Source: an uncultured virus (IMG/VR IMGVR_UViG_3300012147_000007)
Taxonomy: Duplodnaviria; Heunggongvirae; Uroviricota; Caudoviricetes
IMG/VR virus record: IMGVR_UViG_3300012147_000007
Location: 62,001-117,229 of that record
Strand: one strand, 5' to 3'
DNA length: 55,229 nucleotides
The position numbers and the translations under genes were made by a program. How positions within the stretch are numbered: the stretch's first letter is position 1; each line of letters begins with the position of its first letter. Below, piece after piece: positions 37,027-54,066 of this stretch. The notes below the pieces were generated by a model. It did not search any database and had not been told where the DNA came from. It was given only the letters and a program-made list of their open reading frames with translations.

Positions 37027-37203
37027 ATGGAAATAATGGACACAGATTTTGATGATAATGCAAAATTAATCATAAAAGAATTGACTGAGGCTAACGAAAA
37101 CTTTGAAAAAGTTATCAAAAAATTACAACAGGCCAGAAACAAATTTATAAAAAAACACGAACCCATAGAAGCCTTAAAAACAAGTATTAAAAACAAAAGC
37201 TAA
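37027..37203 (+). CDS. Small coiled-coil protein (58 aa)
   Basis: Not in the ORF track; MEIMDTDFDDNAKLIIKELTEANENFEKVIKKLQQARNK...; TAATG-coupled to the PAS gene. Confidence 0.7.
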   Translation: MEIMDTDFDDNAKLIIKELTEANENFEKVIKKLQQARNKFIKKHEPIEALKTSIKNKS

Positions 37204-37727
37204 TGAATTCTGATGAAAATAAAGACATAAAAGGAAAATTAGACAGCGGACTAAATAGCCCAAAAAGCCTGAAAGCTTTAACTGAAAAACTAAACAACAG
37301 AGATAAAGATTTAGAAGAAGAAAGAGAAGTTTATAAATTCTTAGCAGAAAATTCTAACGATGGCTATTGGGACTGGAAAATGGATAAAGACATACCTTTT
37401 GAAGAGCAATATGAATATATGTCTCCAAGATTTTGGGAAATATTTGGATACTCGCCAGAAGAAAAAGAACACAAAGTTAAAGCGTGGATGGACATGATTA
37501 ACAAAGAAGATGGAGAGGCTGCTGTAGAAAATCTTAATAAGCACATAAAATCAAAAGGAAAAACGCCTTATAAACAAACAGTAAGGTACACACATAAAGA
37601 CGGAAGTACGGTTTGGGTACTTTGCAAGGGAGCGGTTGTAAAATGGAACGAAGATGGTAGTGCATCAAGAATGATTGGCACTCACACTGACGTTACTGAA
37701 ATAATGAATTCAAAAAACAATAAGTAA
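37203..37727 (+). CDS. Stand-alone PAS/PAC domain protein (PAS_3-like) with N-terminal coiled coil
   Basis: SNDGYWDW, YMSPRFWEIFGY, W.DMI..ED, RYTHKDGSTVWVLCKG, EDG..SRMIGTHTDVTE; no kinase or output domain. Confidence 0.9.
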   Translation: MNSDENKDIKGKLDSGLNSPKSLKALTEKLNNRDKDLEEEREVYKFLAENSNDGYWDWKMDKDIPFEEQYEYMSPRFWEIFGYSPEEKEHKVKAWMDMINKEDGEAAVENLNKHIKSKGKTPYKQTVRYTHKDGSTVWVLCKGAVVKWNEDGSASRMIGTHTDVTEIMNSKNNK

Positions 37728-38155
37728 TGGCAGAAAAAGATGAAAACCAAGGGTGGAAAGAATGGTCTAACCACGTCCTTAAAGAACTTGAGCGTTTGAA
37801 TAGCAACTATGAAAACCTTAAAGATGAAGTTATTAAAACAAATCAAGAATTAGTTAAGACTTCTGGAATGAGGTACGCTCTTAATGAACTTAAAGAATGG
37901 AAGAAGGATGTCGAAAAAGTTGTTAATGAGACAGACCTCAAGGAAATGAAAAAAAGTGTTGCAGAAATTAAGACAAACACAGAAAATATTGAGAAAAATA
38001 AAGGCAAAATAACAGAAGTTGACAAAGAAAAAGATGCCAACAAAAAAGACATTGATGACCTTAGAACTTTTAAAACAAAAGTAGTTACGGCTGGAGTCAT
38101 TTCTTTTTTCATTCTAACTACAGCAATTACTATTCTTGGTTGGTATCTGTCTTAG
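37727..38155 (+). CDS. Coiled-coil protein with single C-terminal TM helix, holin/XhlA-like candidate
   Basis: WKEWSNHVLKELERLN coiled coil; C-terminal VVTAGVISFFILTTAITILGWYL; TAATG-coupled. Confidence 0.7.
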   Translation: MAEKDENQGWKEWSNHVLKELERLNSNYENLKDEVIKTNQELVKTSGMRYALNELKEWKKDVEKVVNETDLKEMKKSVAEIKTNTENIEKNKGKITEVDKEKDANKKDIDDLRTFKTKVVTAGVISFFILTTAITILGWYLS

Positions 38156-39017: not shown

Positions 39018-39620
39018 TTATCTATTTGATGGTACATAATTTTCATTTATAGTACCATCGTCATTTAACTTACAATGCACTACTCCGTGGCAATTTGAAC
39101 AAAGTAAAATACATTTATTTAATTCAGGCAATAAATTAATCCAAGATTTTTTTCTCATCTTATTCCAATTCATTTCTTTTTCTTCTGGCTTTTCGTGGTG
39201 AAATTCAAAACTTGCATAATGTCCTTTAAACCCACAATCTACACAACGCCCACCCAAATGCTCTATTGCCCTTTTTTTAAAAACCCTTGCTCTTTCAATA
39301 TCGTGCTTTCCACTACAGTCTCTACATCTACCATAGACTTTCAAACTATTGGGTGAAAAATCATCCTTTATTCTATATGTCTCACAATCATAACACCATT
39401 GATGCTCATCTGGACATTCTCCTCTTTTTTCTAAATTTTCTCTATACTCTAAAATCTTCTTAGCGTGCTCTGGATTTTCCTTTTTAATTCTATTTAATCT
39501 CCTCTCTTTCTCTGCTAATCTAAAACACACTTTACAATCCAACCTCCAACTTCTATTATGCTTATGATACTCTTCTAAATCCTTTACCTCATTACAAGTT
39601 CTGCATTTTCTTTCTTCCAT
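39018..39620 (-). mobile_element. Free-standing HNH endonuclease with Zn ribbons
   Basis: Multiple CxxC; LGGRCVDCG...FEFHH...ELNKCILLCSNCH..VH. Confidence 0.82.
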
Positions 39621-39676
39621 TTTTTATTTATAAATAGAAAGAAATATGTTTTACCATAGTTTGTTTGATAACAGGC

Positions 39677-40108
39677 TTATTCACCCTTTTCTAAAAATGA
39701 TATATCAAGAGTCCATTTTTTCTTACTTCTTTCTTCCCAAATATTAAACACTTCCTCAATATAATCATCTGCCTGCTTATCAGTTAAACAATTTATTTTC
39801 ATCATATGTGCTTTAATTTCTTTTTCTTTTCCAGAAATTCTTGCATATCCAAAATGCTTTGTAGAATGACAATTTGGACAAAGCGCAATTAATCCCTTAA
39901 GAGTCTGCTCACAAGACTCATCATCATAATTCCAAATTTCGTGACACTCCACGGGATGCTTCGGGCCCTTACCGCTGCAAACTTCACATTTATATTCTGC
40001 TTTCTTATAGCAGTCTTTTCTAAGGACATCCCACTCTGCTTGTGATACATTGGAGCGCACGTTATTATAAAAAGAAGATGCAGGCACAAGTTCTATAGTT
40101 AAAATCAT
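39677..40108 (-). CDS. Conserved HNH-like (LTIELVP family) protein
   Basis: LTIELVP..NVRS...W..LR...CEVC...ECHEIW.Y...LIALCPNCH..KHFG; ATG at 40108. Confidence 0.82.
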   Translation of the reverse strand: MILTIELVPASSFYNNVRSNVSQAEWDVLRKDCYKKAEYKCEVCSGKGPKHPVECHEIWNYDDESCEQTLKGLIALCPNCHSTKHFGYARISGKEKEIKAHMMKINCLTDKQADDYIEEVFNIWEERSKKKWTLDISFLEKGE

Positions 40109-40110
40109 AA

Positions 40111-41079
40111 TCAATTAAATTTATCCCATTTATGTGTACAAATAAACTTATTTTCCTTAATAAATCCAATTAAATAATCAATAACAATTGGATTATATAT
40201 TCTAAGTCTAAAATAGGAATCTTTTTGTTTTAAAGCTTTTTTACTCAAAGTTACATTAAAAATATCTTCTAAGCGTTTTATCCAATATTTTAATATTAAC
40301 TTCCAATTTTCATGAGAAGTAATAGTTATACATCTCGAATTTTTCTTGCTTAAATATAAACTACCATCTCCATCAATGAATCCTATTAAAAAACTTAAAA
40401 AATTTTCATCTGACATTTTATTAAAAACACTCAAAGAAGGCGGGAAATATGTTTTAGTTTTTTCTCCCTTTTTATAATTTATATCATACTTTTTATTTAT
40501 CAAAGGAATTACTTTTGAATCTTTTAAATAACATATAGCGCTCCCATTACTAACTGTATCAACTCCTAATATATTTACTTTTTTCACTTCATCGTATAGT
40601 TTAATATTTTTACAACCAATATAATTAGCAAAACCAATAACAACTTCCTTATTTTTCATACACTGATTCAGTTGTATCTTTTTATTTGTAAAATATCCAT
40701 CAGCAAATAATAGACCTATGTAATAATATGTTTTAACACTCTCATTCAATAGAATTTCAACATTAGAGTCTCTCATTGTTGAATATTGGTATTCTGCTCT
40801 TTTTAATTTTAATTTTTTAGCTTTTGCTAAAATAGAGCTCCAACTTCTGTTTTCCAAAAGTTTCAATAATTTTTCAGAAGAAGAGTTTGAATAGTATTTT
40901 ATTATAATATTCTCTTCCATTTCTGACCATAAATTTTCTTCTGTTATTCCAAGTGCTTTTTTTCTATTTTTTACAGAGGGAATTGTTCTTCCAACTAATT
41001 CAGCTAAATACTTAATTGGAGATTCTATATTGTTTTTTAAAATAAAATCCTCCTGCTCTGTCCATCTTTTGTTTTTCAT
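40111..41079 (-). mobile_element. Free-standing double-motif LAGLIDADG homing endonuclease with N-terminal WT/WSxxE repeats
   Basis: YYIGLLFADG and FLIGFIDGDGS; N-terminal WTEQED and WSEMEE. Confidence 0.87.
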
Positions 41080-41080
41080 A

Positions 41081-41158
41081 TTACATGTATTTTATTATAA
41101 ATACATGAAAATTTTTAAACCAAGCCGTCTGTGGTACTAATTCAATTGTTAGCTTCAT
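41081..41158 (-). pseudogene. Orphan N-terminal stub MKLTIELVPQTAWFKN... of the gene at 39677-40108
   Basis: LTIELVP is identical to the downstream gene's N-terminus; start overlaps the dnaE-C stop; ends 1 nt before the LAGLIDADG ATG. Confidence 0.88.
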
Positions 41159-43481
41159 CTTCTTTTTTACTTAAATCTTTATCAACTCGAACGATTCTCG
41201 TTCCTCTCTTAAAATTAACATAACCTTTTTCGTTCTTTTCAAACTCAGCAACATAAATGCCATTGGCAGCAAGGAGTGGTTGTAGAGATTTCGCAACTGG
41301 GTCGAAAGCTCTAAGTGTTGTGAAACTAATTCCATCACCAACTCTCATTGTTAAATATTCTTTTCCATTCTTACTCATAGAAACCTTAAAGGTATCTACC
41401 ACAAAAATGTAGAAATCATTATCATCAAAATTAATAATTGTCTCAACAAGCTTATCTCTCTTAGCTCTCTTGTTTACATCAGCCTTTATGTCCTGAATGT
41501 ACTTTATTTTTTCAAGGTCAAAATTACACACCTCAAGGAAATCTGTTCTTTTCGATGCCCAGTTTGTTGGAGGATATTTGTTCTCTTCTTTTTTAACTGG
41601 AATGTCAAAAGCTTCGTCATTCATATCAAACAAAACAGTTTGATTTGCGTTTACTTTCTTTTTCTTTTTTGTCTTAGACTTAAGGTCAGCAAGCTGTTCT
41701 CTTGAATCGCTCCAATCATCAAATACGCCAGCTTTAAGGCAAGCTTCAAAAGCACTTTTATTAAACTTGCTAAACGGCAATCTAAAGAACAAACTCATAC
41801 TCACAGTCTCAAGGGTTTTTTTCTCCTGACCTTCTTTGACTTTTATTTCTTTAATCAAATCAAGCATCTCTTCGTATGCAATTGGGCCCAATCCGTTAAT
41901 ACCAGAGAATCCCATAGAAATTTCGTGCTCACCAGTCATTGTCCATCTCCATCCAGACTTTCTTGATGGCATCTTTATCTCAATCCCTTTTGACATCGCA
42001 GAAGCAATTGCAGAACCAATCCAAGCTTGCTGTTTTTCTTTGTTACCAGACTTAGGGTGATTTAGAAGGGCGGTATAAAACTCGGTTGGGTAGTAGTGTT
42101 TTAAATACAAAGTTTGCATCGCCAAATAACTATATGAAAGTGCATGAGACTTATTGAATGAGTATCCAAGGTATTGAATTACCCAATCTTTAATTTTATC
42201 TACATCACCTTTGTCATAACCTTGAGCTGCAGCCCCATCTAAGAACATGTTCCAATACTGCTGGAAACCTTTCCAGTTCTTGTCGTTTTTCTCTGTATCA
42301 GTTAGCGTCTCTCCCGCTGAATTTCTTGCAATAATTTTAGATGCCTTATCCATATACCTTCTAAGCATATCTCCTTTACCAAGACCCATTCCACCAATCT
42401 TATCAGCAATAAACATAAGTTGTTCCTGAAACACAAGTACTCCATTCGTTTCTCCAAGAATCGGCTTCAACGCAGGGTGGATATATTTAATCTTCTCTGG
42501 GTTGAATTTGTTTACGATAAACTCTTCGTGTGCGCCAATTCCCATTGGGCCTGGACGATACAGTGCGTTGGCAGCAACAAGTTCTTCAAATTTATCAACT
42601 GCAATACCTCTAATAAGATTGTTCATACCATGACTCTCAAACTGAAATATCCCATGATTAAGACCAAGCCTTAATTCTGTAAATAACTTTGGGTCTTCAA
42701 GGTCAACGTAATCAACTTTTTGAGAAATATCTTCTCCCGTTGTTCTTTTTACAATGTCAACAGTTTCCTTAATTACATTTAAGGTTTCTAATTTTAATCT
42801 ATCCAATTTTAGAATCCCAAGTGCTGAAAGGTCTTTTCCAGACTTATCCGCCTCCTGAAACGCTGTAACAACACTTCCGTTGGATGTGATTACATTGGTT
42901 GGAATATAATCCCAAGATAACCCTGGTGTAATTACAACTCCTGCAGCATGCTGTCCAATACCTCTAATGTTTCCATGAAGCTGGAGAGCAGTCTCAATCA
43001 TCTCCTTATTTTTTGGCTCTCTAATCCAATTTCTAACTTCTGGACTACACTCTGGTTTATCTGGCCAAGTTTCAAACCAATGCCTAAGAGTGTCGTTGTA
43101 ATTTAAGAAGTTCGGCATCTCCTTTGTTAATTTAAACACTCCAGAATCAAACCCAGTAGCATCGCTTCCACGATATGCACGAACAACATCCTTAATTGTA
43201 TTCTTCTCAGAAAATGTAGAAAAAGTAGCAACAGACATAACACGTTCTTTTCCATACTTGTCTTGTAGGAATTGATTTGTTACATCATCTGTACCTGTCA
43301 TAAAATCAATATCAATATCGGGAGGAGAATTGTGAATTAAAACACTTGAAATCAATGAGTTATAGCAATCATCTAAAGTTTTACTTGAACTGTAAAAAAG
43401 ATTATCTTTATCAAAAGATAAATCATAAACCTTATTTTTATAATCAATTTTATTTATTGATTTTATTTTTGATAATCTCAT
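41142..43481 (-). CDS. dnaE: DNA polymerase III alpha, C-terminal half, preceded by split C-intein
   Basis: After ...LIHN: SPPDIDIDF, GQHAAGVVI, LKLDRL.L.TL, GIFQFES, ALYRPGPM, ETNGVLVFQEQLM, YSFNKSHA. Confidence 0.95.
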   Translation of the reverse strand: MRLSKIKSINKIDYKNKVYDLSFDKDNLFYSSSKTLDDCYNSLISSVLIHNSPPDIDIDFMTGTDDVTNQFLQDKYGKERVMSVATFSTFSEKNTIKDVVRAYRGSDATGFDSGVFKLTKEMPNFLNYNDTLRHWFETWPDKPECSPEVRNWIREPKNKEMIETALQLHGNIRGIGQHAAGVVITPGLSWDYIPTNVITSNGSVVTAFQEADKSGKDLSALGILKLDRLKLETLNVIKETVDIVKRTTGEDISQKVDYVDLEDPKLFTELRLGLNHGIFQFESHGMNNLIRGIAVDKFEELVAANALYRPGPMGIGAHEEFIVNKFNPEKIKYIHPALKPILGETNGVLVFQEQLMFIADKIGGMGLGKGDMLRRYMDKASKIIARNSAGETLTDTEKNDKNWKGFQQYWNMFLDGAAAQGYDKGDVDKIKDWVIQYLGYSFNKSHALSYSYLAMQTLYLKHYYPTEFYTALLNHPKSGNKEKQQAWIGSAIASAMSKGIEIKMPSRKSGWRWTMTGEHEISMGFSGINGLGPIAYEEMLDLIKEIKVKEGQEKKTLETVSMSLFFRLPFSKFNKSAFEACLKAGVFDDWSDSREQLADLKSKTKKKKKVNANQTVLFDMNDEAFDIPVKKEENKYPPTNWASKRTDFLEVCNFDLEKIKYIQDIKADVNKRAKRDKLVETIINFDDNDFYIFVVDTFKVSMSKNGKEYLTMRVGDGISFTTLRAFDPVAKSLQPLLAANGIYVAEFEKNEKGYVNFKRGTRIVRVDKDLSKKEDEANN
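43329..43481 (-). mobile_element. Split intein C-fragment (IntC, 51 aa)
   Basis: MRLSKIKSINKI...VYDLSF (block F)...VLIHN/S (block G, Ser+1). Confidence 0.93.
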
Positions 43482-44557
43482 AATTTACTTGCTTCTATTT
43501 GACTTTTTATATATACTAAAACATTTTCTTTATTATCCTTCCAGTCTTTTTCCCAAATTTCTATATAACTACAATTAATAACACTTATAATTTCATTCTT
43601 TCTTTTTCTATCATCTCTCCAAATCTCAGATGCCAATCTTTTTTTGTTTTTATGATAAAAATCATGACTATAAATCATTGGATTACAATGCCAATAATCA
43701 CCCATAATTTCAATAGCTATATTGTGTTCATTATTATAATAATCAAGTTTATAAAATTTACTTTTGTTTACAATTAAAACTTTTTGACCAAATTCAGAAT
43801 TATAATGATAAGAATCGTTTAATCCTAAATTTTGTAATTCTAAAATAATTTCCCTCTCCAAGTTAGAGGATTCTCCTAAGTTTTTATTTGTTTTTTTAGC
43901 ATTTTCCATTTGCCACTCTTTATCCATAAACAAATTATCTACTCCAAACTTATCCTGCATAGTCATTGTTACAGCTGAATAATGACAACCACGCTCCAAG
44001 AACCAACTCACACCATACCTATCATCCATGGTCTTAGAAATCTTATCCTTAATCTTCTTATATTGAATTGGTGCCTTAAGACCAGTTGTTCCAAGATTTT
44101 TATTCAAAGACTTTTCATATTGACTTCTATACTCTTTAGTCTTATAATAAAGTGATTTATAATCTTTCTCAGATAATACGTGTCCATTAGACCAGAATTT
44201 AATACCCTTTCTTGATGGGTGTAGGTCTATTAGCTCATCTTTCTCGGAAAACTTATTGTACATTTTAACCTTTGACTCAGTTAATGAATAATCCTGGTTT
44301 CCACACTTAATAAGAACAGCACTGTGTCCTCTTGGTCCTTTTCCAAAATAGCAATCTTCAACAATTCCGATAAAACTTTCTTTATTGTACAATTCTTTTC
44401 CAATTAAATTTTCAATAGAAACCGATAATTTACTTTTATATGGCCATATTTCTATTTCGTTATTATCAGCTTTTTTAAAGTCAAAAAACTCACACAACCC
44501 AGCAACTAAATCACTCTGACCATCGAACTCAATATTTAACAACTCTTCTTTTTTCAT
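43478..44557 (-). mobile_element. Vsr-like (EDxHD-type) homing endonuclease between the split-intein halves
   Basis: RYGV/KFGV repeats, SNLEREI, LDYY...IAIEIMGDYWHCNP, D..RK, IEIWEKDW; likely ATG at 44557; ATGA-coupled to dnaE-C. Confidence 0.87.
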
Positions 44558-44614
44558 AATTATAAAATCTGTATCTATAAATATAGATAAAAACTTCAAA
44601 CGATATTTGTATTT

Positions 44615-46816
44615 TTAAAACACAAACAATTGGTCGCTCTCCATAATACCATCTACACGAACTTCAATTCTCTCGCCATCCCTAAAAACAGGAACAATAT
44701 GGCACCCAGTCAACTCAACTATAGCTCCATCTTCAGTTTCAATTTCATAAACATTCTCGTTTTCCTTAAGCTCTCTCTCGTGCTTTTGAACCAAGGTTCC
44801 AAGTCCGTGTTCTGTCTGAACTGGGTCTCCAACCTCTACTTCAACGATGTTCTTATAAGAGCCATCTTTCATCATGACATTGCAGTTTGATGTTAAACAG
44901 TTTCTTTCTGGATTTAGGAAACGCTCAAAATAAAGATTAAACCTTATTGGGTCAATCTTTGTAATATCAAGACACCACGACAATAGACTTCCTGCTGCAG
45001 AACCTCTGGCTGGGCCAATGTCATGACCTTCGTTTCTGTAGAAATTAATAATCTCCCAGTTTACAAGAAAGTAATCAAGCATCTTCTTTGATTCAATAAT
45101 ACTAATCTCATAATTAAGACGGTCAACATACTCATTAACCTTTTCATCGGTCATCTCAACGATTCCATTTTTCTTATATATCTCAACTTTTTGCTTTAAC
45201 TTAATAAACGCAAGTTTTACAATAATCTCCTCTGGCTTATCTGTGCCAAAATATTCTATTATTTTTTCAGTTGGCTCATATCTTGGATATTTCTCAGTAC
45301 CAGTATCAAATTCAAAATTACACCTATCAGCTATAATGTTTGTATTTTTCATACAAAGTTCAAGAAACTTTTCAGGATACTTAAATCCATACTTTTCGTT
45401 CATTTCTCTATAGTCATCGCTATTGAAGTAGTATAACTCTCTGTTTTCTTTCAGAGAACAATAGGCAAGCATACGATGTTGCTTAATAGATGTAACTACA
45501 TCTTGAAGCTTTGAATCCTCTCTTCTTGGATAGTAGGTGTCATTGCTCATTACTGGAAGCAATTTATACTTACTCATCATTTTAATCAAGAAGTTGTTAT
45601 ACTGCTTCTGAGTGGCGAACTTACTAAACTTAAACTCCACTATCAAATCTTCTCCAAACTCGCTCCTAAGCATGTTAAGATAGTTCTCTGCGTCAATAAC
45701 CTTTCCTTTAAGAACCAGGTTTGCTAATTTACTATCAAGACCTGAGGTAGATATTATTAAACCCTCTTTATATTTCAAAAGCCACTCTGTAGTTATTCTT
45801 GATTCTTTCTTAAATAACCCCTCTGTGTTTGCGAGGTATATCAAATGATTCAGATTTCTATATCCAATTTCATTTTTTATGAAAATCTTTATTTTATAAT
45901 TATCTCCCTCAAGCTCTCTGTCTTCAAATTTTCCAATATTGTCATTCAAGAAAGACTCGACACCAAAAACTGGTTTAATCCCTTTTGACTTACATTTATT
46001 GAAGAATTCAAATGAACCAGATAATGTTGAGTTATCTGTTATTGCCATTGAGGTGTGGCCATACTCTTTTGCAAGCTTAATATACTCGTCTACAGAACCA
46101 GCTCCATCAAGAATAGAGTGAAATGTATGGAGACCAAGTGGAGTTACTCGGATTGAATCGCCCGCTTGCATAGGTTTCTCTTCTGCAACTTTAGTAAGAG
46201 AATCCATTAAATCTTCTGCGCCCTCTTCTTCTTTGAATCCAAGGATGCCTATTCTTTGAAGTTCGAAAAAACATTTTGCAAGCGCAGTAACATCCGCAAG
46301 TGCATCGTGAGCATCTTCGAATCCTTTGTCAAATAATTTTTGGTGAAGTTCTGTTTGAGAAGGAAATTTCATCCCACTCCTACCTCTTTTGTTTGGAATT
46401 GCCACGAAGTCAGTTGTGAGCTTCATGGTGTCAATGTGATTTATGTCTGGAATGCAGTTGTACATTCCCTCTCTAAGGAATTCACAGCCTGTTACATTTT
46501 CATCAAAGGAAATGTTGTGAGCAATAAGATGCTTATTGTTCTTTACAGCTTCTGAAAACTTTTCAAGCGCCTGCCTCAAAGGAACTCCATCCTCTTTAGC
46601 TCTCTCGTTTGTAATCCTATGAATCGCTATTGCTTCATCAGGAATCCTAAACCCTTGAGGTTTAATAATTAAATTCTGAGAATCTGTCTCTACACCATTC
46701 GCATCAAAGATTTTCCAAGCAATCTGAACCATTCTTGGCCAGTTGTTAAAATCAGTAATTGGTGCGCTAAAATTCTTTGCCTTACCAGTTGTTTCGGTAT
46801 CAAATACTATATACAT
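44615..46816 (-). CDS. dnaE: DNA polymerase III alpha, N-terminal half: DEDDh exonuclease + PHP + start of polymerase, ending in split N-intein
   Basis: FDTETTG, AHNISFD, AHDALADV; LHTFHSILDG, AITD, KPVFGVE; RLNYE..II, GPARGSAAGSL, DPI.F.L.FERFLNPERN. Confidence 0.95.
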   Translation of the reverse strand: MYIVFDTETTGKAKNFSAPITDFNNWPRMVQIAWKIFDANGVETDSQNLIIKPQGFRIPDEAIAIHRITNERAKEDGVPLRQALEKFSEAVKNNKHLIAHNISFDENVTGCEFLREGMYNCIPDINHIDTMKLTTDFVAIPNKRGRSGMKFPSQTELHQKLFDKGFEDAHDALADVTALAKCFFELQRIGILGFKEEEGAEDLMDSLTKVAEEKPMQAGDSIRVTPLGLHTFHSILDGAGSVDEYIKLAKEYGHTSMAITDNSTLSGSFEFFNKCKSKGIKPVFGVESFLNDNIGKFEDRELEGDNYKIKIFIKNEIGYRNLNHLIYLANTEGLFKKESRITTEWLLKYKEGLIISTSGLDSKLANLVLKGKVIDAENYLNMLRSEFGEDLIVEFKFSKFATQKQYNNFLIKMMSKYKLLPVMSNDTYYPRREDSKLQDVVTSIKQHRMLAYCSLKENRELYYFNSDDYREMNEKYGFKYPEKFLELCMKNTNIIADRCNFEFDTGTEKYPRYEPTEKIIEYFGTDKPEEIIVKLAFIKLKQKVEIYKKNGIVEMTDEKVNEYVDRLNYEISIIESKKMLDYFLVNWEIINFYRNEGHDIGPARGSAAGSLLSWCLDITKIDPIRFNLYFERFLNPERNCLTSNCNVMMKDGSYKNIVEVEVGDPVQTEHGLGTLVQKHERELKENENVYEIETEDGAIVELTGCHIVPVFRDGERIEVRVDGIMESDQLFVF
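44618..44899 (-). mobile_element. Split intein N-fragment (IntN, 94 aa)
   Basis: Begins CLTSNCNVMMKDGSYKNI.EV.VGD.V (block A); block B VYEIETEDG..VELTGCHIVPV; ends at a stop codon. Confidence 0.93.
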
Positions 46817-51340: not shown

Positions 51341-52279
51341 TTATTCTTCCACCTCTTTGAATACATTCGACCTGGTAATCTTATATTTTTTAACATTTCC
51401 AGATTTTGCATTAATATAACCTTCTTTCCACCACTTAAGCATTTGCTCTTTATCAAATATCAAAGAATTCTCTGTCAATCCATATGGTGTGTAATAAATA
51501 TTTATTGAGATTTCTCTCCCATGTGACTCAAGCTTATTAAGGTCAATATTATCCTTAGCTATCTTTCTCATCAAAATCTCTATCAGCCTAACAAAGTATT
51601 GAAATAAATTATTAATCATAGCTCTCTTAACAACACCAAAGCCTTCTGGGCTTAACACAATTACATCAATTTCAGTTGCCCCATTCTCAATAGCTACTTG
51701 AATTGGTATATGTTGATGAATTGCTCCATCAGCATATTGGTTCCCGTCTTTTTCTAAAATAGATGTGTATATTGGAGCATTACAAGATGCCCAGAGCCAA
51801 TCAACGAAATCCTCATACGAATTATCGTTTGAAGATTTGAACTCAGCCCTTTTGTCTGTAAGGTTTGAAACCACTGCGATAACTTCTTTATCGGATTTAT
51901 AAAGTCTTTCAAAATGTTTTTCAGTAAAATGTTTCTTTATTAAATTCCTTAAGTTATCAGTTTCTCCAATAGTTTTTTTGGATGTAATTAACCTTTTGAT
52001 TGCATTCCACCTTCTAACACTGCCATCTTCGTTAAAGGGGTTTATTGAGAATATATCTTCAGTTGTAATGCTTGTATATCCCTCTTTTAGTATGCTTAAT
52101 TCTCGTATAGATGACAATGGAGCAAGAAGACTTCCTGTTGATGTTCCCACGTAAAGGTCATAATCTTTGTCTTGGTCTTCGAGAAGATGTTGTATTACTC
52201 CACCAGCCCAAGCGCCTTTTGCCCCTCCACCAGAAATACACAAAGCTCGTTTTCTTTTTTTTACCCCTTTACTTCCCAT
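51341..52279 (-). CDS. Patatin-like phospholipase
   Basis: ISGGGAKGAWAGG, GTSTG nucleophile elbow, ASCNAP, YADGA. Confidence 0.92.
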   Translation of the reverse strand: MGSKGVKKRKRALCISGGGAKGAWAGGVIQHLLEDQDKDYDLYVGTSTGSLLAPLSSIRELSILKEGYTSITTEDIFSINPFNEDGSVRRWNAIKRLITSKKTIGETDNLRNLIKKHFTEKHFERLYKSDKEVIAVVSNLTDKRAEFKSSNDNSYEDFVDWLWASCNAPIYTSILEKDGNQYADGAIHQHIPIQVAIENGATEIDVIVLSPEGFGVVKRAMINNLFQYFVRLIEILMRKIAKDNIDLNKLESHGREISINIYYTPYGLTENSLIFDKEQMLKWWKEGYINAKSGNVKKYKITRSNVFKEVEE

Positions 52280-52887
52280 ATATATCCTTTACACTTAAAT
52301 GTCCCTCTTCTTATACAATTTTGGATTGCTGATGTATTAACGCCTATATTTCTTGCAGCCTCTCCATAGCTATTAAATTCTTTTATCAAACTCCCTTCTA
52401 AATCGTATTGATTGACTTTTTTAGAATTTACTGGTATTTGTCCTTTTTTAAATTCAGTTTTAGGACTTAACCTTTCTCCTTTTTTTATTCTTGTCTCTTT
52501 TCCGATTTCATTTCCCTTTTTAAAAGTTGTTTTGTTTGACTTAATAGAACCAATAACACCTTTATTCCATGGTACATTTCCCTTATCTACGCCATCTCCA
52601 CCAGAAGTCTCATTGGTCAAATTAAATCCCCAGCACTTAAACTGTTCAATCCAATAACTCTCCCAAAACCTCCAATCTTCTTCTAAAATCTCGTCAATAA
52701 CTTCTATAGCTGGTTCTAAATCTCTTTTTAGAAGACTTTTAATCCAAGCCTTCTTGTGTGATGTAGTTGATTTTTTGCTTTCATTTATATGTCTATTTAA
52801 TCTTTTTGCAATATTTGTAGTTTTTCCAACATACTTAACATCATTTGTTAATGGGTCAATCAACACATATATAATTACAGTCCTCAT
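52261..52887 (-). mobile_element. Free-standing GIY-YIG homing endonuclease with NUMOD-type C-terminal domains
   Basis: IIYVLIDP...KYVGKT....RL..H, E.YWI, LTN.T.GGDG, PWNKG, FKKG repeats, VNQYDLEG..IKEF.S..EAA...GYIW. Confidence 0.9.
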
Positions 52888-52889
52888 AA

Positions 52890-52970
52890 CTATAAATAGT
52901 TAAAATTTTTGCCCCCACCACTAATTACAAAATTTTTTAAGTTTTCCTGGTATGTTTTTTCTTCTGCCAT
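52890..52970 (-). pseudogene. Orphan stub MAEEKTYQENLKNFVISGGGK..., relic patatin N-terminus
   Basis: FVISGGGK versus LCISGGGAK; DNA GGTGGGGGCAAAA versus GGTGGAGGGGCAAAA; stops 2 nt before the GIY-YIG ATG. Confidence 0.6.
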
Positions 52971-53003
52971 AAAAAAAGGAGTTATAAAAAATATAACTCC
53001 TTT
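52971..53003 (-). terminator. Intrinsic terminator
   Basis: AAAGGAGTTATA-5 nt-TATAACTCCTTT with U7 on the minus strand. Confidence 0.75.
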
Positions 53004-53025
53004 CTATGATAAAATCAATTTTATC

Positions 53026-54066
53026 TTATTTCTTTTTATTTGTCTTTCTTGCCTTCATCTTGATGACCTTGCAGCAACCTTCTTTGTGTGCATGATTGTT
53101 TTCCATATATTCATAACCCTCTTGCCACCAATTAGTCATCTGTTCCTTATTAAAGTACATTGCATTATCAGTAAGGTGTCTTGGTGCGTAGTATATTTTT
53201 AAAGTAACATCTTTATCTTTGGCCATATTTTTTGCATTATCAATATCTCTTTCCATTGCCTCACGAAGAGAAATATCAAACATTCTGGCAAGTAATTTAA
53301 GAGGGTTTGCTCCAAATTCTGGCTCCATATCTCCCATGTACTCTTCCGTGTTTGTAGAAATTGCGTCAATTTCAGTTGCTCCATTAGAAATAGCTTGAGA
53401 AATTGGCATATGCTCTTTAAATCCACCGTCAGCATAATAATCAGAATAAATCGTTGGATGTTCTCCGTTATGAATTATGTTTCCATTTTCATCAACAACC
53501 TTTCTTGAAATAGAGGTGAATGGAACTGCGCATGCAGAAGTCCATGTCCATTCTACAAAATCCTCATATCCTTTTCTGTTTCTACCAAGAGACTTCATGT
53601 CAAAATACATCGTCTTATTTTTTGACATGTTTGTAACAGTTGATGTCATGTTGATTCCGCTGTCATATGCAAGAAGATATTTCTCGTAAGGAAAAAACTT
53701 TTTAATTGTTTCTTTAAACTTTTTATTGTCTCCAAAAGTAGGTTCTTTTCTAAAAAGAATCATTCTCACTACAGACCATAAATTAATATCTGCCTGCCCT
53801 GACTTTTTTGGGTCTTTTACTTTTTTGAATGGGCTTACGTCATACATACCTTTAATGTCCATGGAAGTGTAACCCTCCTTTAGAGCTGTAAAGTCATTGA
53901 TTGATGCAAGCATTTGTAGAAGTGTTCCAGTTGATGTGCTGAGATACATATCATACTCTCTACCTTCTTTGAGTTTCATATGCTCCAGCATCCCTCCTGT
54001 GAATGCTCCCTTAGATGCTCCACCACTTAAGCAAAGAGCTCTTTTTATTTCGCTTTTTACAATCAA
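53026..54066 (-). CDS. Patatin-like phospholipase, second paralog
   Basis: LSGGASKGAFTGG, STSTG, SACAVPF, YADGG. Confidence 0.9.
   Translation of the reverse strand: MIVKSEIKRALCLSGGASKGAFTGGMLEHMKLKEGREYDMYLSTSTGTLLQMLASINDFTALKEGYTSMDIKGMYDVSPFKKVKDPKKSGQADINLWSVVRMILFRKEPTFGDNKKFKETIKKFFPYEKYLLAYDSGINMTSTVTNMSKNKTMYFDMKSLGRNRKGYEDFVEWTWTSACAVPFTSISRKVVDENGNIIHNGEHPTIYSDYYADGGFKEHMPISQAISNGATEIDAISTNTEEYMGDMEPEFGANPLKLLARMFDISLREAMERDIDNAKNMAKDKDVTLKIYYAPRHLTDNAMYFNKEQMTNWWQEGYEYMENNHAHKEGCCKVIKMKARKTNKKK

What the first reader, a model, noticed from the sequence alone, without database searches (positions are those of the whole stretch)
40060..41158. LAGLIDADG gene flanked by a synonymously recoded duplicate of its target's first codons
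The stub at 41081-41158 reads MKLTIELVPQTAWFKN; the downstream gene reads MILTIELVPASSFYNN. LTIELVP is encoded CTA ACA ATT GAA TTA GTA CCA in the stub and TTA ACT ATA GAA CTT GTG CCT downstream, so 6 of 7 codons differ for the same peptide. The stub start overlaps the dnaE-C stop like a normal coupled gene. This places the probable insertion or cleavage site at about codon 16 and is the clearest example of the architecture.
Basis: seen in the sequence. Interest (0 to 1): 0.8.

Follow-up and report, generated by a model that had tools for sequence, protein, structure and literature searches.

The report
Homing endonuclease replaces HNH gene start
A selfish DNA-cutting-enzyme gene has inserted 16 codons into a conserved phage nuclease gene and keeps that gene whole without splicing by bringing its own foreign copy of the gene's start, leaving the original start as a dead stub, a layout known from yeasts and fungal mitochondria.

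Summary
A 1,050-bp cassette (40061-41110, minus strand) sits between codons N16 and V17 of a conserved phage HNH gene (PHROG 5200). It holds a promoter-like TATTTAT motif, a two-motif LAGLIDADG gene and a foreign 16-codon replacement start. The stub is the native start: 37/39 nt identical to a close empty allele. The replacement best matches another carrier's (31/39, against 21-26/39 for empties). Three other loci have the same layout. An empty/occupied pair, 99.4-99.7% identical, fixes the insertion point. Three decayed relics keep a downstream start. A sequencing run holds the cassette about 99% identical inside about 88% identical flanks, suggesting recent spread. "Recoded" overstates it: 24% of ordinary allele pairs differ at 6 or more of these 7 codons. 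Intron and tandem-duplication readings fail. It works like yeast WHO elements and fungal mitochondrial mORFs but swaps the 5' end in a phage. Eight literature searches found no phage description; this scan has noted the design in other phages. Cleavage is inferred, not shown.

The parts
41142..43481 (-). dnaE C-terminal half (DNA polymerase III alpha; begins with an intein C-part-like segment). Its last 17 nt overlap the stub, so the stub's first codons cannot be lost.
   Evidence: Pfam PF17657, PF07733; same overlap in empty alleles L146-L149, L151, L153
41111..41158 (-). Native first 16 codons of the HNH gene, now a dead stub (reads on into the cassette to a stop at 41081). Probably serves as the left homology arm.
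   Evidence: Codons 1-13 are 37/39 nt identical to empty allele L149 and 36/39 to L147; homology-arm role is inferred
40061..41110 (-). Mobile cassette, 1,050 bp: leader + LAGLIDADG gene + replacement start
   Evidence: Boundaries by register with the L224/L019 pair; cassette lengths 1050, 1053, 1073, 1065 in four loci
41084..41107 (-). 9-bp inverted repeat holding the promoter-like motif TATTTAT (41097-41103), just upstream of the endonuclease start
   Evidence: Inverted repeat. TATTTAT lies within 45 nt upstream of 31 of 111 ORFs in this genome, 2.2 expected. One compensatory pair in L018; no such hairpin in L019 or L020. Function inferred.
40111..41079 (-). Free-standing two-motif LAGLIDADG endonuclease, 322 aa, with an N-terminal helical repeat region (about residues 1-100); 24% GC
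   Evidence: Motifs around D127 and D238 are at least 90% conserved in 16 aligned relatives; I-CreI-type matches; AlphaFold pLDDT 87.7; Foldseek top hits bI3 maturase and I-AniI, E about 1e-7; Pfam LAGLIDADG_3 22.2 bits, just under its 22.5 cut-off
40061..40108 (-). Replacement codons 1-16 of the HNH gene, carried by the cassette; ATG 2 nt after the endonuclease stop
   Evidence: Codons 1-13 are 31/39 nt identical to the replacement in L018 but 21-26/39 to 13 empty alleles; nearest empty heads are outside the dnaE clade, at most 32/42
39677..40060 (-). Body of the target gene (codons 17-143), PHROG 5200 HNH endonuclease
   Evidence: phrog_5200 E 1.5e-54; 237 INPHARED phage records hold a relative; dN/dS 0.03-0.17 in 4 pairs of empty alleles
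39018..39620 (-). Second, unrelated HNH endonuclease (PHROG 2255) with its own TATTTAT motif. May home into the 3' half of the same target gene.
   Evidence: phrog_2255 E 5e-28; 3 of 3 distinct full-length members found lie beside the target gene; target codons 80-143 track L146, the other carrier; role inferred

Best explanation
A non-splicing homing cassette that swaps the start of its host gene. SHOWN: the cassette sits between codons 16 and 17 of a conserved HNH gene. It holds a promoter-like motif, a LAGLIDADG gene and a foreign 16-codon start fused in frame to the resident body. The native start is left upstream as a stub. INFERRED: in a mixed infection the enzyme cuts an empty allele at or near the N16/V17 codons. 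The break is repaired from the carrier, with the stub plus upstream gene as left homology and the HNH body as right homology. The recipient gets the cassette and a working chimeric HNH gene. The carrier is immune because the site is split and the replacement start differs from empty alleles left of the junction. The endonuclease later decays while the replacement start stays. The first cassette probably arose when an endonuclease gene lying just upstream of a distant phage's HNH allele was captured with homology on one side only.
For: (1) L224 (empty) and L019 (occupied) are 99.7% identical over 1,842 nt up to N16 and 99.4% over 2,187 nt from V17, with a 1,073-bp insert between. (2) The same layout and junction occur in the window, L018, L019 and L020, in two phage clades with different upstream genes. 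(3) The head travels with the enzyme, not with the body. Window and L018 share a head (31/39 nt), but the L018 body groups with empty L149/L151 (97/98) and the window body is closest to L146. L019 and relic L225 share a head (41/42) on bodies sister to different empty alleles. (4) Recent spread: in run X4 one contig matches 40412-41162 with 7 differences in 751 nt but the dnaE tail with 23 in 194. In X6 two contigs match 40446-40917 with 0 differences. (5) Decay relics L225, L255 and L063/L235 have lost most of the enzyme and all or most of the stub but keep a full downstream gene. (6) The site is conserved: N16 in 120 of 121 distinct empty heads; target dN/dS 0.03-0.17; endonuclease dN/dS about 0.36-0.44. 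(7) Fold and motifs are those of monomeric LAGLIDADG enzymes. (8) The same mechanism has been shown for yeast WHO elements (PMC7282813).
Against: No cleavage, expression or homing was observed. Only 4 intact carriers with DNA context were found; 13 or so other close relatives (43-85% identity) could not be placed in context. The replacement's right junction differs from empty sites at only 3-4 of the 12 nt left of the junction, so immunity by sequence difference is an assumption. The window's own HNH body is mosaic (codons 80-143 track L146), so how much body came with the cassette here cannot be fixed. The X4/X6 evidence rests on short, low-depth contigs and an 88% likeness cut-off, and 79 difference rows were not shown. 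The Pfam score is below the curated cut-off.
Confidence: 0.83

Rival explanations
1. T4-style intronless homing with a long tract: a free-standing endonuclease upstream of a resistant HNH allele brought in the whole donor gene, and the stub is only the scar of one illegitimate left junction.
For: The window's HNH body is not closest to the phages whose dnaE and RNase H are closest (L149, L151: 84-86% nt) but to L146. This is also the likely origin of the cassette.
Against: In L019 the body is nearly identical to the empty twin while the head is foreign. The same heads sit on different bodies in two clades. The window's affinity to L146 starts near codon 80, not 17, and coincides with the second endonuclease.
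Confidence: 0.07
2. The LAGLIDADG gene is a passenger or cuts elsewhere; the cassette is moved by another nuclease (the neighbouring PHROG 2255 HNH or the target HNH itself) or by ordinary recombination.
For: No activity data. A second endonuclease gene lies on the other side of the target in the window.
Against: L018, L019 and L020 carry the cassette without a PHROG 2255 gene; X4 diverges right after the target gene. Catalytic motifs are intact and under purifying selection. None of 120 loci of more distant LAGLIDADG relatives holds this target, so the link is specific to this subfamily.
Confidence: 0.06
3. The cassette is a self-splicing group I intron; splicing joins stub codon 16 in frame to V17, and the downstream start is incidental.
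For: Stub N16 and V17 are in frame, and the 5' side ends in T, as in most group I introns (PMC13565253 passage).
Against: 0 Rfam matches at E up to 1 in 4 of 4 carrier loci. The last cassette base is C, T, A, C in the four carriers, not G (terminal G recalled). The ORF fills 969 of 1,050 bp at 24% GC. Relics lose the stub but keep the downstream start.
Confidence: 0.02
4. An old tandem duplication of the HNH gene, with an unrelated later insertion and erosion of the first copy.
For: Two similar starts lie 1 kb apart.
Against: The stub is closer to empty alleles of other phages (37/39) than to its neighbour; in L019 it is identical (42/42) to the empty twin. Stubs end at one codon in 4 of 4 loci. 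None of 13 empty dnaE-linked alleles has a duplicate.
Confidence: 0.02

Closest known systems
WHO elements of Torulaspora and Lachancea yeasts homing into FBA1 (Coughlan et al. 2020, PMC7282813; passages and the whole Discussion read)
   Same: A non-splicing LAGLIDADG-related gene between an intact chimeric host gene and a displaced fragment of it. The element carries the resistant gene end. The fragment is the second homology arm. The host gene survives decay of the endonuclease.
   Different: WHO replaces the 3' end (about 400 bp), is an intein-like plus zinc-finger protein, builds tandem clusters and homes in meiosis. Here the 5' 16 codons are replaced, so the cassette must also supply a start codon and probably a promoter. 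There is no intein or zinc finger, and no cluster was seen. It is in a phage. Cleavage was shown for WHO, not here.
Mobile endonuclease ORFs (mORFs) that make gene hybrids in fungal mitochondria: Allomyces macrogynus atp6; Glomus atp6, atp9, cox2, nad3 (PMC3630166, passages)
   Same: A LAGLIDADG or GIY-YIG ORF inserts in a gene with a foreign copy of one terminus. The native terminus matches close relatives and is displaced.
   Different: Those cases are C-terminal and organellar, some fused in frame to the host gene. [quoted passage not shown]
Intronless homing by free-standing phage endonucleases (T4 Seg/Mob, SegF; review PMC13565253, passages; ICP1 HEGs PMC10448857, passages)
   Same: A free-standing phage endonuclease next to a conserved gene; immunity by sequence difference; co-conversion of flanks.
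   Different: [quoted passage not shown] This element has a fixed insertion point inside the coding sequence and leaves a stub.
Aeh1 mobE splitting nrdA into two peptides (Friedrich et al. 2007; seen only as cited in PMC7344957 and PMC8351571)
   Same: A non-splicing endonuclease inserted inside a phage gene that stays functional.
   Different: There both pieces are made and nothing is duplicated. Here a replacement start restores one whole protein.

Membership tests
Two-motif (monomeric) LAGLIDADG homing endonucleases | Two LAGLIDADG helices, each ending in an acidic residue | tested here: met
   D127 and D238 motifs at least 90% conserved in 16 relatives; second motif aligns to I-CreI. Assignment of these as catalytic is by analogy, recalled.
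Two-motif (monomeric) LAGLIDADG homing endonucleases | LAGLIDADG fold | tested here: met
   Model pLDDT 87.7; 101 PDB matches at E up to 0.001, best bI3 maturase, I-AniI, I-HjeMI-type entry 3uvf (name of 3uvf recalled)
Two-motif (monomeric) LAGLIDADG homing endonucleases | Pfam curated threshold | tested here: not met
   LAGLIDADG_3 22.2 bits against 22.5; most relatives carry PF14528 in the precomputed column
Two-motif (monomeric) LAGLIDADG homing endonucleases | Site-specific double-strand cleavage of the empty allele | not testable with these tools
   Needs an assay
WHO elements | Non-splicing endonuclease between an intact chimeric host gene and a displaced fragment | tested here: met
WHO elements | Intein-like plus zinc-finger protein | tested here: not met
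   No Hint or zinc-finger family on this ORF; N-terminus is helical
WHO elements | Replaces the 3' end of FBA1; tandem clusters | tested here: not met
   5' end of a phage HNH gene; single copies in 4 of 4 carriers
Fungal mitochondrial mORF gene hybrids | Carried terminus is foreign, displaced terminus is native | tested here: met
   Stub 37/39 nt to an empty relative, replacement 21-26/39
Fungal mitochondrial mORF gene hybrids | Organellar; C-terminal replacement | tested here: not met
   Phage genome (portal, terminase); N-terminal replacement
Group I intron with encoded endonuclease | Catalytic RNA core | tested here: not met
   0 Rfam matches at E up to 1 in 4 of 4 loci; divergent cores can be missed
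Group I intron with encoded endonuclease | Terminal G (recalled) | tested here: not met
   Last base C, T, A, C
Group I intron with encoded endonuclease | Splicing of the transcript | not testable with these tools
   No RNA holder was listed
T4-type intronless homing endonucleases | Intergenic, no discrete insertion point in the target | tested here: not met
   Fixed junction inside the coding sequence
PHROG 5200 HNH endonucleases (target gene) | Profile match over the full length | tested here: met
   E 1.5e-54, residues 2-140; atlas hits named HNH endonuclease family at 0.98
PHROG 5200 HNH endonucleases (target gene) | Nuclease activity and biological role | not testable with these tools
   Foldseek gave no match at E up to 0.001; best sequence match to a solved HNH E 0.028

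The most novel reading that the evidence does not exclude
Large phages host a general, so far undescribed form of the WHO-like third class of homing element: non-splicing cassettes that swap a gene's 5' end and bring their own promoter and start codon. This LAGLIDADG subfamily is an actively spreading example with its whole life cycle on record (empty, occupied, relic). Its host, a small HNH gene of unknown role, is a homing hotspot hit at two sites by two unrelated endonuclease families, so the window's copy is a three-part mosaic: head from the LAGLIDADG cassette, middle resident, tail from the PHROG 2255 element.
Probability: 0.5. Interest if true: 0.68.

Novelty: new variant of a known kind. 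Interest (0 to 1): 0.52.

Why it matters
It extends a homing strategy proven in yeast and described in fungal mitochondria to phage gene starts. It supplies natural substrate/resistant pairs (L224/L019; L149/window) that make the mechanism testable with one cleavage assay. It offers a new LAGLIDADG subfamily with a predictable target. It flags PHROG 5200, usually annotated as one more selfish HNH, as a constrained gene worth restoring. It also warns that such genes are mosaics that mislead annotation and trees. Within this scan the design is no longer unique: 8 earlier notes describe it in other phages.

Tried and rejected
Targeted synonymous recoding: rejected, the codon divergence is ordinary. 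Group I intron and tandem duplication: rejected. Other cases in this genome: a screen of 139 ORFs (278 tests; ATG starts, 70 aa or more, 40-aa ends only) gave mostly full-length paralogues above the stub's score and no second clear case. INPHARED phages: no match to the endonuclease. Genome contigs: 3 distant loci only. An automated head-duplication screen at 62 distinct distant LAGLIDADG loci was weak (top score 39); a motif look afterwards showed stubs it had missed. Sequencing runs: no RNA holder listed. No contig joined across the cassette in 4 of 4 runs laid, out of 16 listed; contigs show presence only, so this says nothing about empty alleles there. The hairpin is not general: present in the window and L018, absent in L019 and L020. 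Fold search of the target gave nothing at E up to 0.001. PHROG 2255 scans found only 3 distinct full-length members and 2 partial hits with no target gene nearby. Earlier-findings look-ups by sequence, by place and by one word set were empty. PMC10448965 and PMC8351571 passages held nothing on this layout.

Full report
Setting. The window is part of a 117-kb contig of a large phage: T4-like portal, terminase, dnaE, polA, ribonucleotide reductase. A record with an identical locus is 364 kb long (L017). The host is unknown. On the minus strand the order is dnaE-C (41142-43481), stub (41081-41158), a 322-aa ORF (40111-41079), a 143-aa gene (39677-40108), a 200-aa HNH (39018-39620), then RNase H.

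Observation. Confirmed as written: 6 of 7 LTIELVP codons differ; 28 of the first 48 nt are shared; the stub overlaps the dnaE end by 17 nt. Alone, the match ranks 9th of 278 tests in a genome-wide screen, so the proof comes from other genomes. The synonymous divergence is not special: 435 of 1,830 pairs of empty alleles differ at 6 or 7 of these codons.

The two proteins. The 322-aa ORF is a two-motif LAGLIDADG protein by alignment, by match to I-CreI-type chains and by fold, though it falls just under the Pfam cut-off. It has 15 relatives at 43-85% identity, then a drop to 38% or less. The target is PHROG 5200, an HNH endonuclease found in 237 INPHARED records. It is constrained: dN/dS 0.03-0.17 in the 4 pairs I chose from 7 empty alleles, and N16 is kept in 120 of 121 distinct empty heads (that set was filtered for the following hydrophobic-Arg pair, so R18 is not a result).

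Which copy is native. Thirteen dnaE-linked alleles have the gene intact, with no endonuclease. Stub codons 1-13 match L149 at 37/39 nt; L149 also has the closest dnaE tail (86%). The downstream codons 1-13 match those alleles at 21-26/39 but match the downstream copy of a second carrier, L018, at 31/39. So the stub is the old start and the downstream start came with the enzyme.

The junction. All 4 further loci with an enzyme of 45% identity or more are followed by the target gene; 3 are intact and have a stub ending at codon 16, and the fourth is a deletion relic. None of 120 loci of more distant relatives holds the target. L224 and L019 are an empty/occupied pair: 99.7% identical up to N16, 99.4% from V17, with 1,073 bp between. 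In the window the cassette is 40061-41110. Window and L018 stubs share FK at codons 14-15 where all 13 empty alleles of their clade have YS or FS, so either the left edge lies a few bases earlier here or these changes co-convert.

The head moves independently of the body. The L018 body groups with empty L149/L151 (97/98), the window's is closest to L146; L019 and relic L225 share a head (41/42 nt) but their bodies are sister to empty L224 and L226 (tree of 24 chosen bodies). In sequencing run X4 one contig has 7 differences in 751 nt over 40412-41162 and 23 in 194 over the dnaE tail; a second has 57 in 786 over 39643-40428, with the 40 listed ones at 39674-39975, inside the target gene and at its end. 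X6 has 0 differences over 40446-40917 but 18 in 151 and 22 in 198 in two dnaE pieces. X3 and X5 match the window's strain. This points to recent spread, with the limits that contigs are short and shallow, only pieces 88% alike or better are laid, and 79 rows were hidden.

Expression and decay. TATTTAT precedes 31 of 111 ORFs (2.2 expected) and sits at 41097-41103, so the cassette probably carries a promoter for both genes (inferred). In L019, L020, L225 and L255 the replacement ATG lies inside the enzyme's conserved Lys-Trp codons; in the window it follows the stop by 2 nt. Relics L063/L235, L255 and L225 have lost half to nearly all of the enzyme gene and all or most of the stub, yet keep a whole target gene.

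A second invader. In L260 a PHROG 2255 HNH (50% identical to the window's 39018-39620) interrupts the same gene after its LCP motif, on the opposite strand, followed by a full new copy. In the window and L146 this family lies just downstream, and target codons 80-143 of the two are closer to each other than to nine other alleles (22-28 against 11-26 of 30 nt per block, higher in 5 of 6 blocks). This rests on three loci and is a lead.

Mechanism. Most likely (0.83) a homing cassette that cuts empty alleles near N16/V17 and is copied using the stub and the body as arms. The layout, boundaries, foreign head, mobility pattern and decay are shown from sequence. Cleavage, immunity, promoter activity and the origin by one-sided capture are inferred.

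What is known. It works like WHO elements (PMC7282813: passages and the whole Discussion) and fungal mORF gene hybrids (PMC3630166: passages), but fails their membership tests on protein type, end replaced and setting. Also seen, as passages only: PMC7487136, PMC6506933 (47 and 54 bp atp9 copies beside a free LAGLIDADG ORF), PMC10448857, PMC7344957, PMC13565253, PMC10448965, PMC8351571. Eight answered searches showed no phage description of 5' replacement; the library lacks most subscription journals, I read only listings for most hits, and I opened no supplements, where such cases could be tabulated. Eight earlier notes of this scan describe the same design in other phages; they are unchecked AI notes and not independent support, and one led me to the WHO paper.

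Verdict. Real; a new variant of a known kind; interest 0.52. Its value is the natural before/after pair, signs of recent spread, relics and a second invader at the same gene.

Noticed in passing
window 41142-46816 (-): dnaE is split at an intein (Hint match at the end of the N-half) with a 373-aa endonuclease-like ORF (43478-44599, phrog_3339) between the halves. dnaE is continuous in L003/L004 and split at another site in L018. Resembles the 'fractured genes' of Dassa et al. 2009 (seen only as a reference title).
   Followed up: partly
L081, L104, L138, L140 (clear); L106, L112, L113 (eroded): More distant relatives of this LAGLIDADG protein show the same stub-and-replacement layout at a gene starting with a metallophosphoesterase-like D-x-H motif (label recalled): 7 of 16 listed loci. 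In several, the downstream frame breaks just after that motif.
   Followed up: partly
L260:809-2319 and window 39018-39620: A PHROG 2255 HNH inserted in reverse after the LCP motif of the same target gene, with a long stub and a full new copy.
   Followed up: partly
L230:1786-2325; L260: The rare N16S change occurs in carrier or relic heads (L019, L225, L255), in both copies in L260, and in L230, which has no endonuclease trace; possibly a spreading resistant scar.
   Followed up: no
G000 whole contig: TATTTAT is a strong promoter-like motif (31 of 111 ORFs, 2.2 expected); many of the ORFs it precedes look like endonuclease genes.
   Followed up: partly
window 51341-54066 (-): Two paralogous patatin-like genes flank a GIY-YIG/NUMOD1 gene (52261-52887); both look full length.
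   Followed up: no
window 37203-38155 (+): A PAS-domain gene and a 142-aa gene with a hydrophobic C-terminus lie on the opposite strand to their neighbours; the second is conserved in related phages.
   Followed up: no
run X4 record 10, between window 41154 and 41162: About 190 extra bases lie between the dnaE end and the stub in this strain; small ORFs occupy that place in empty alleles L150, L152 and L154.
   Followed up: no
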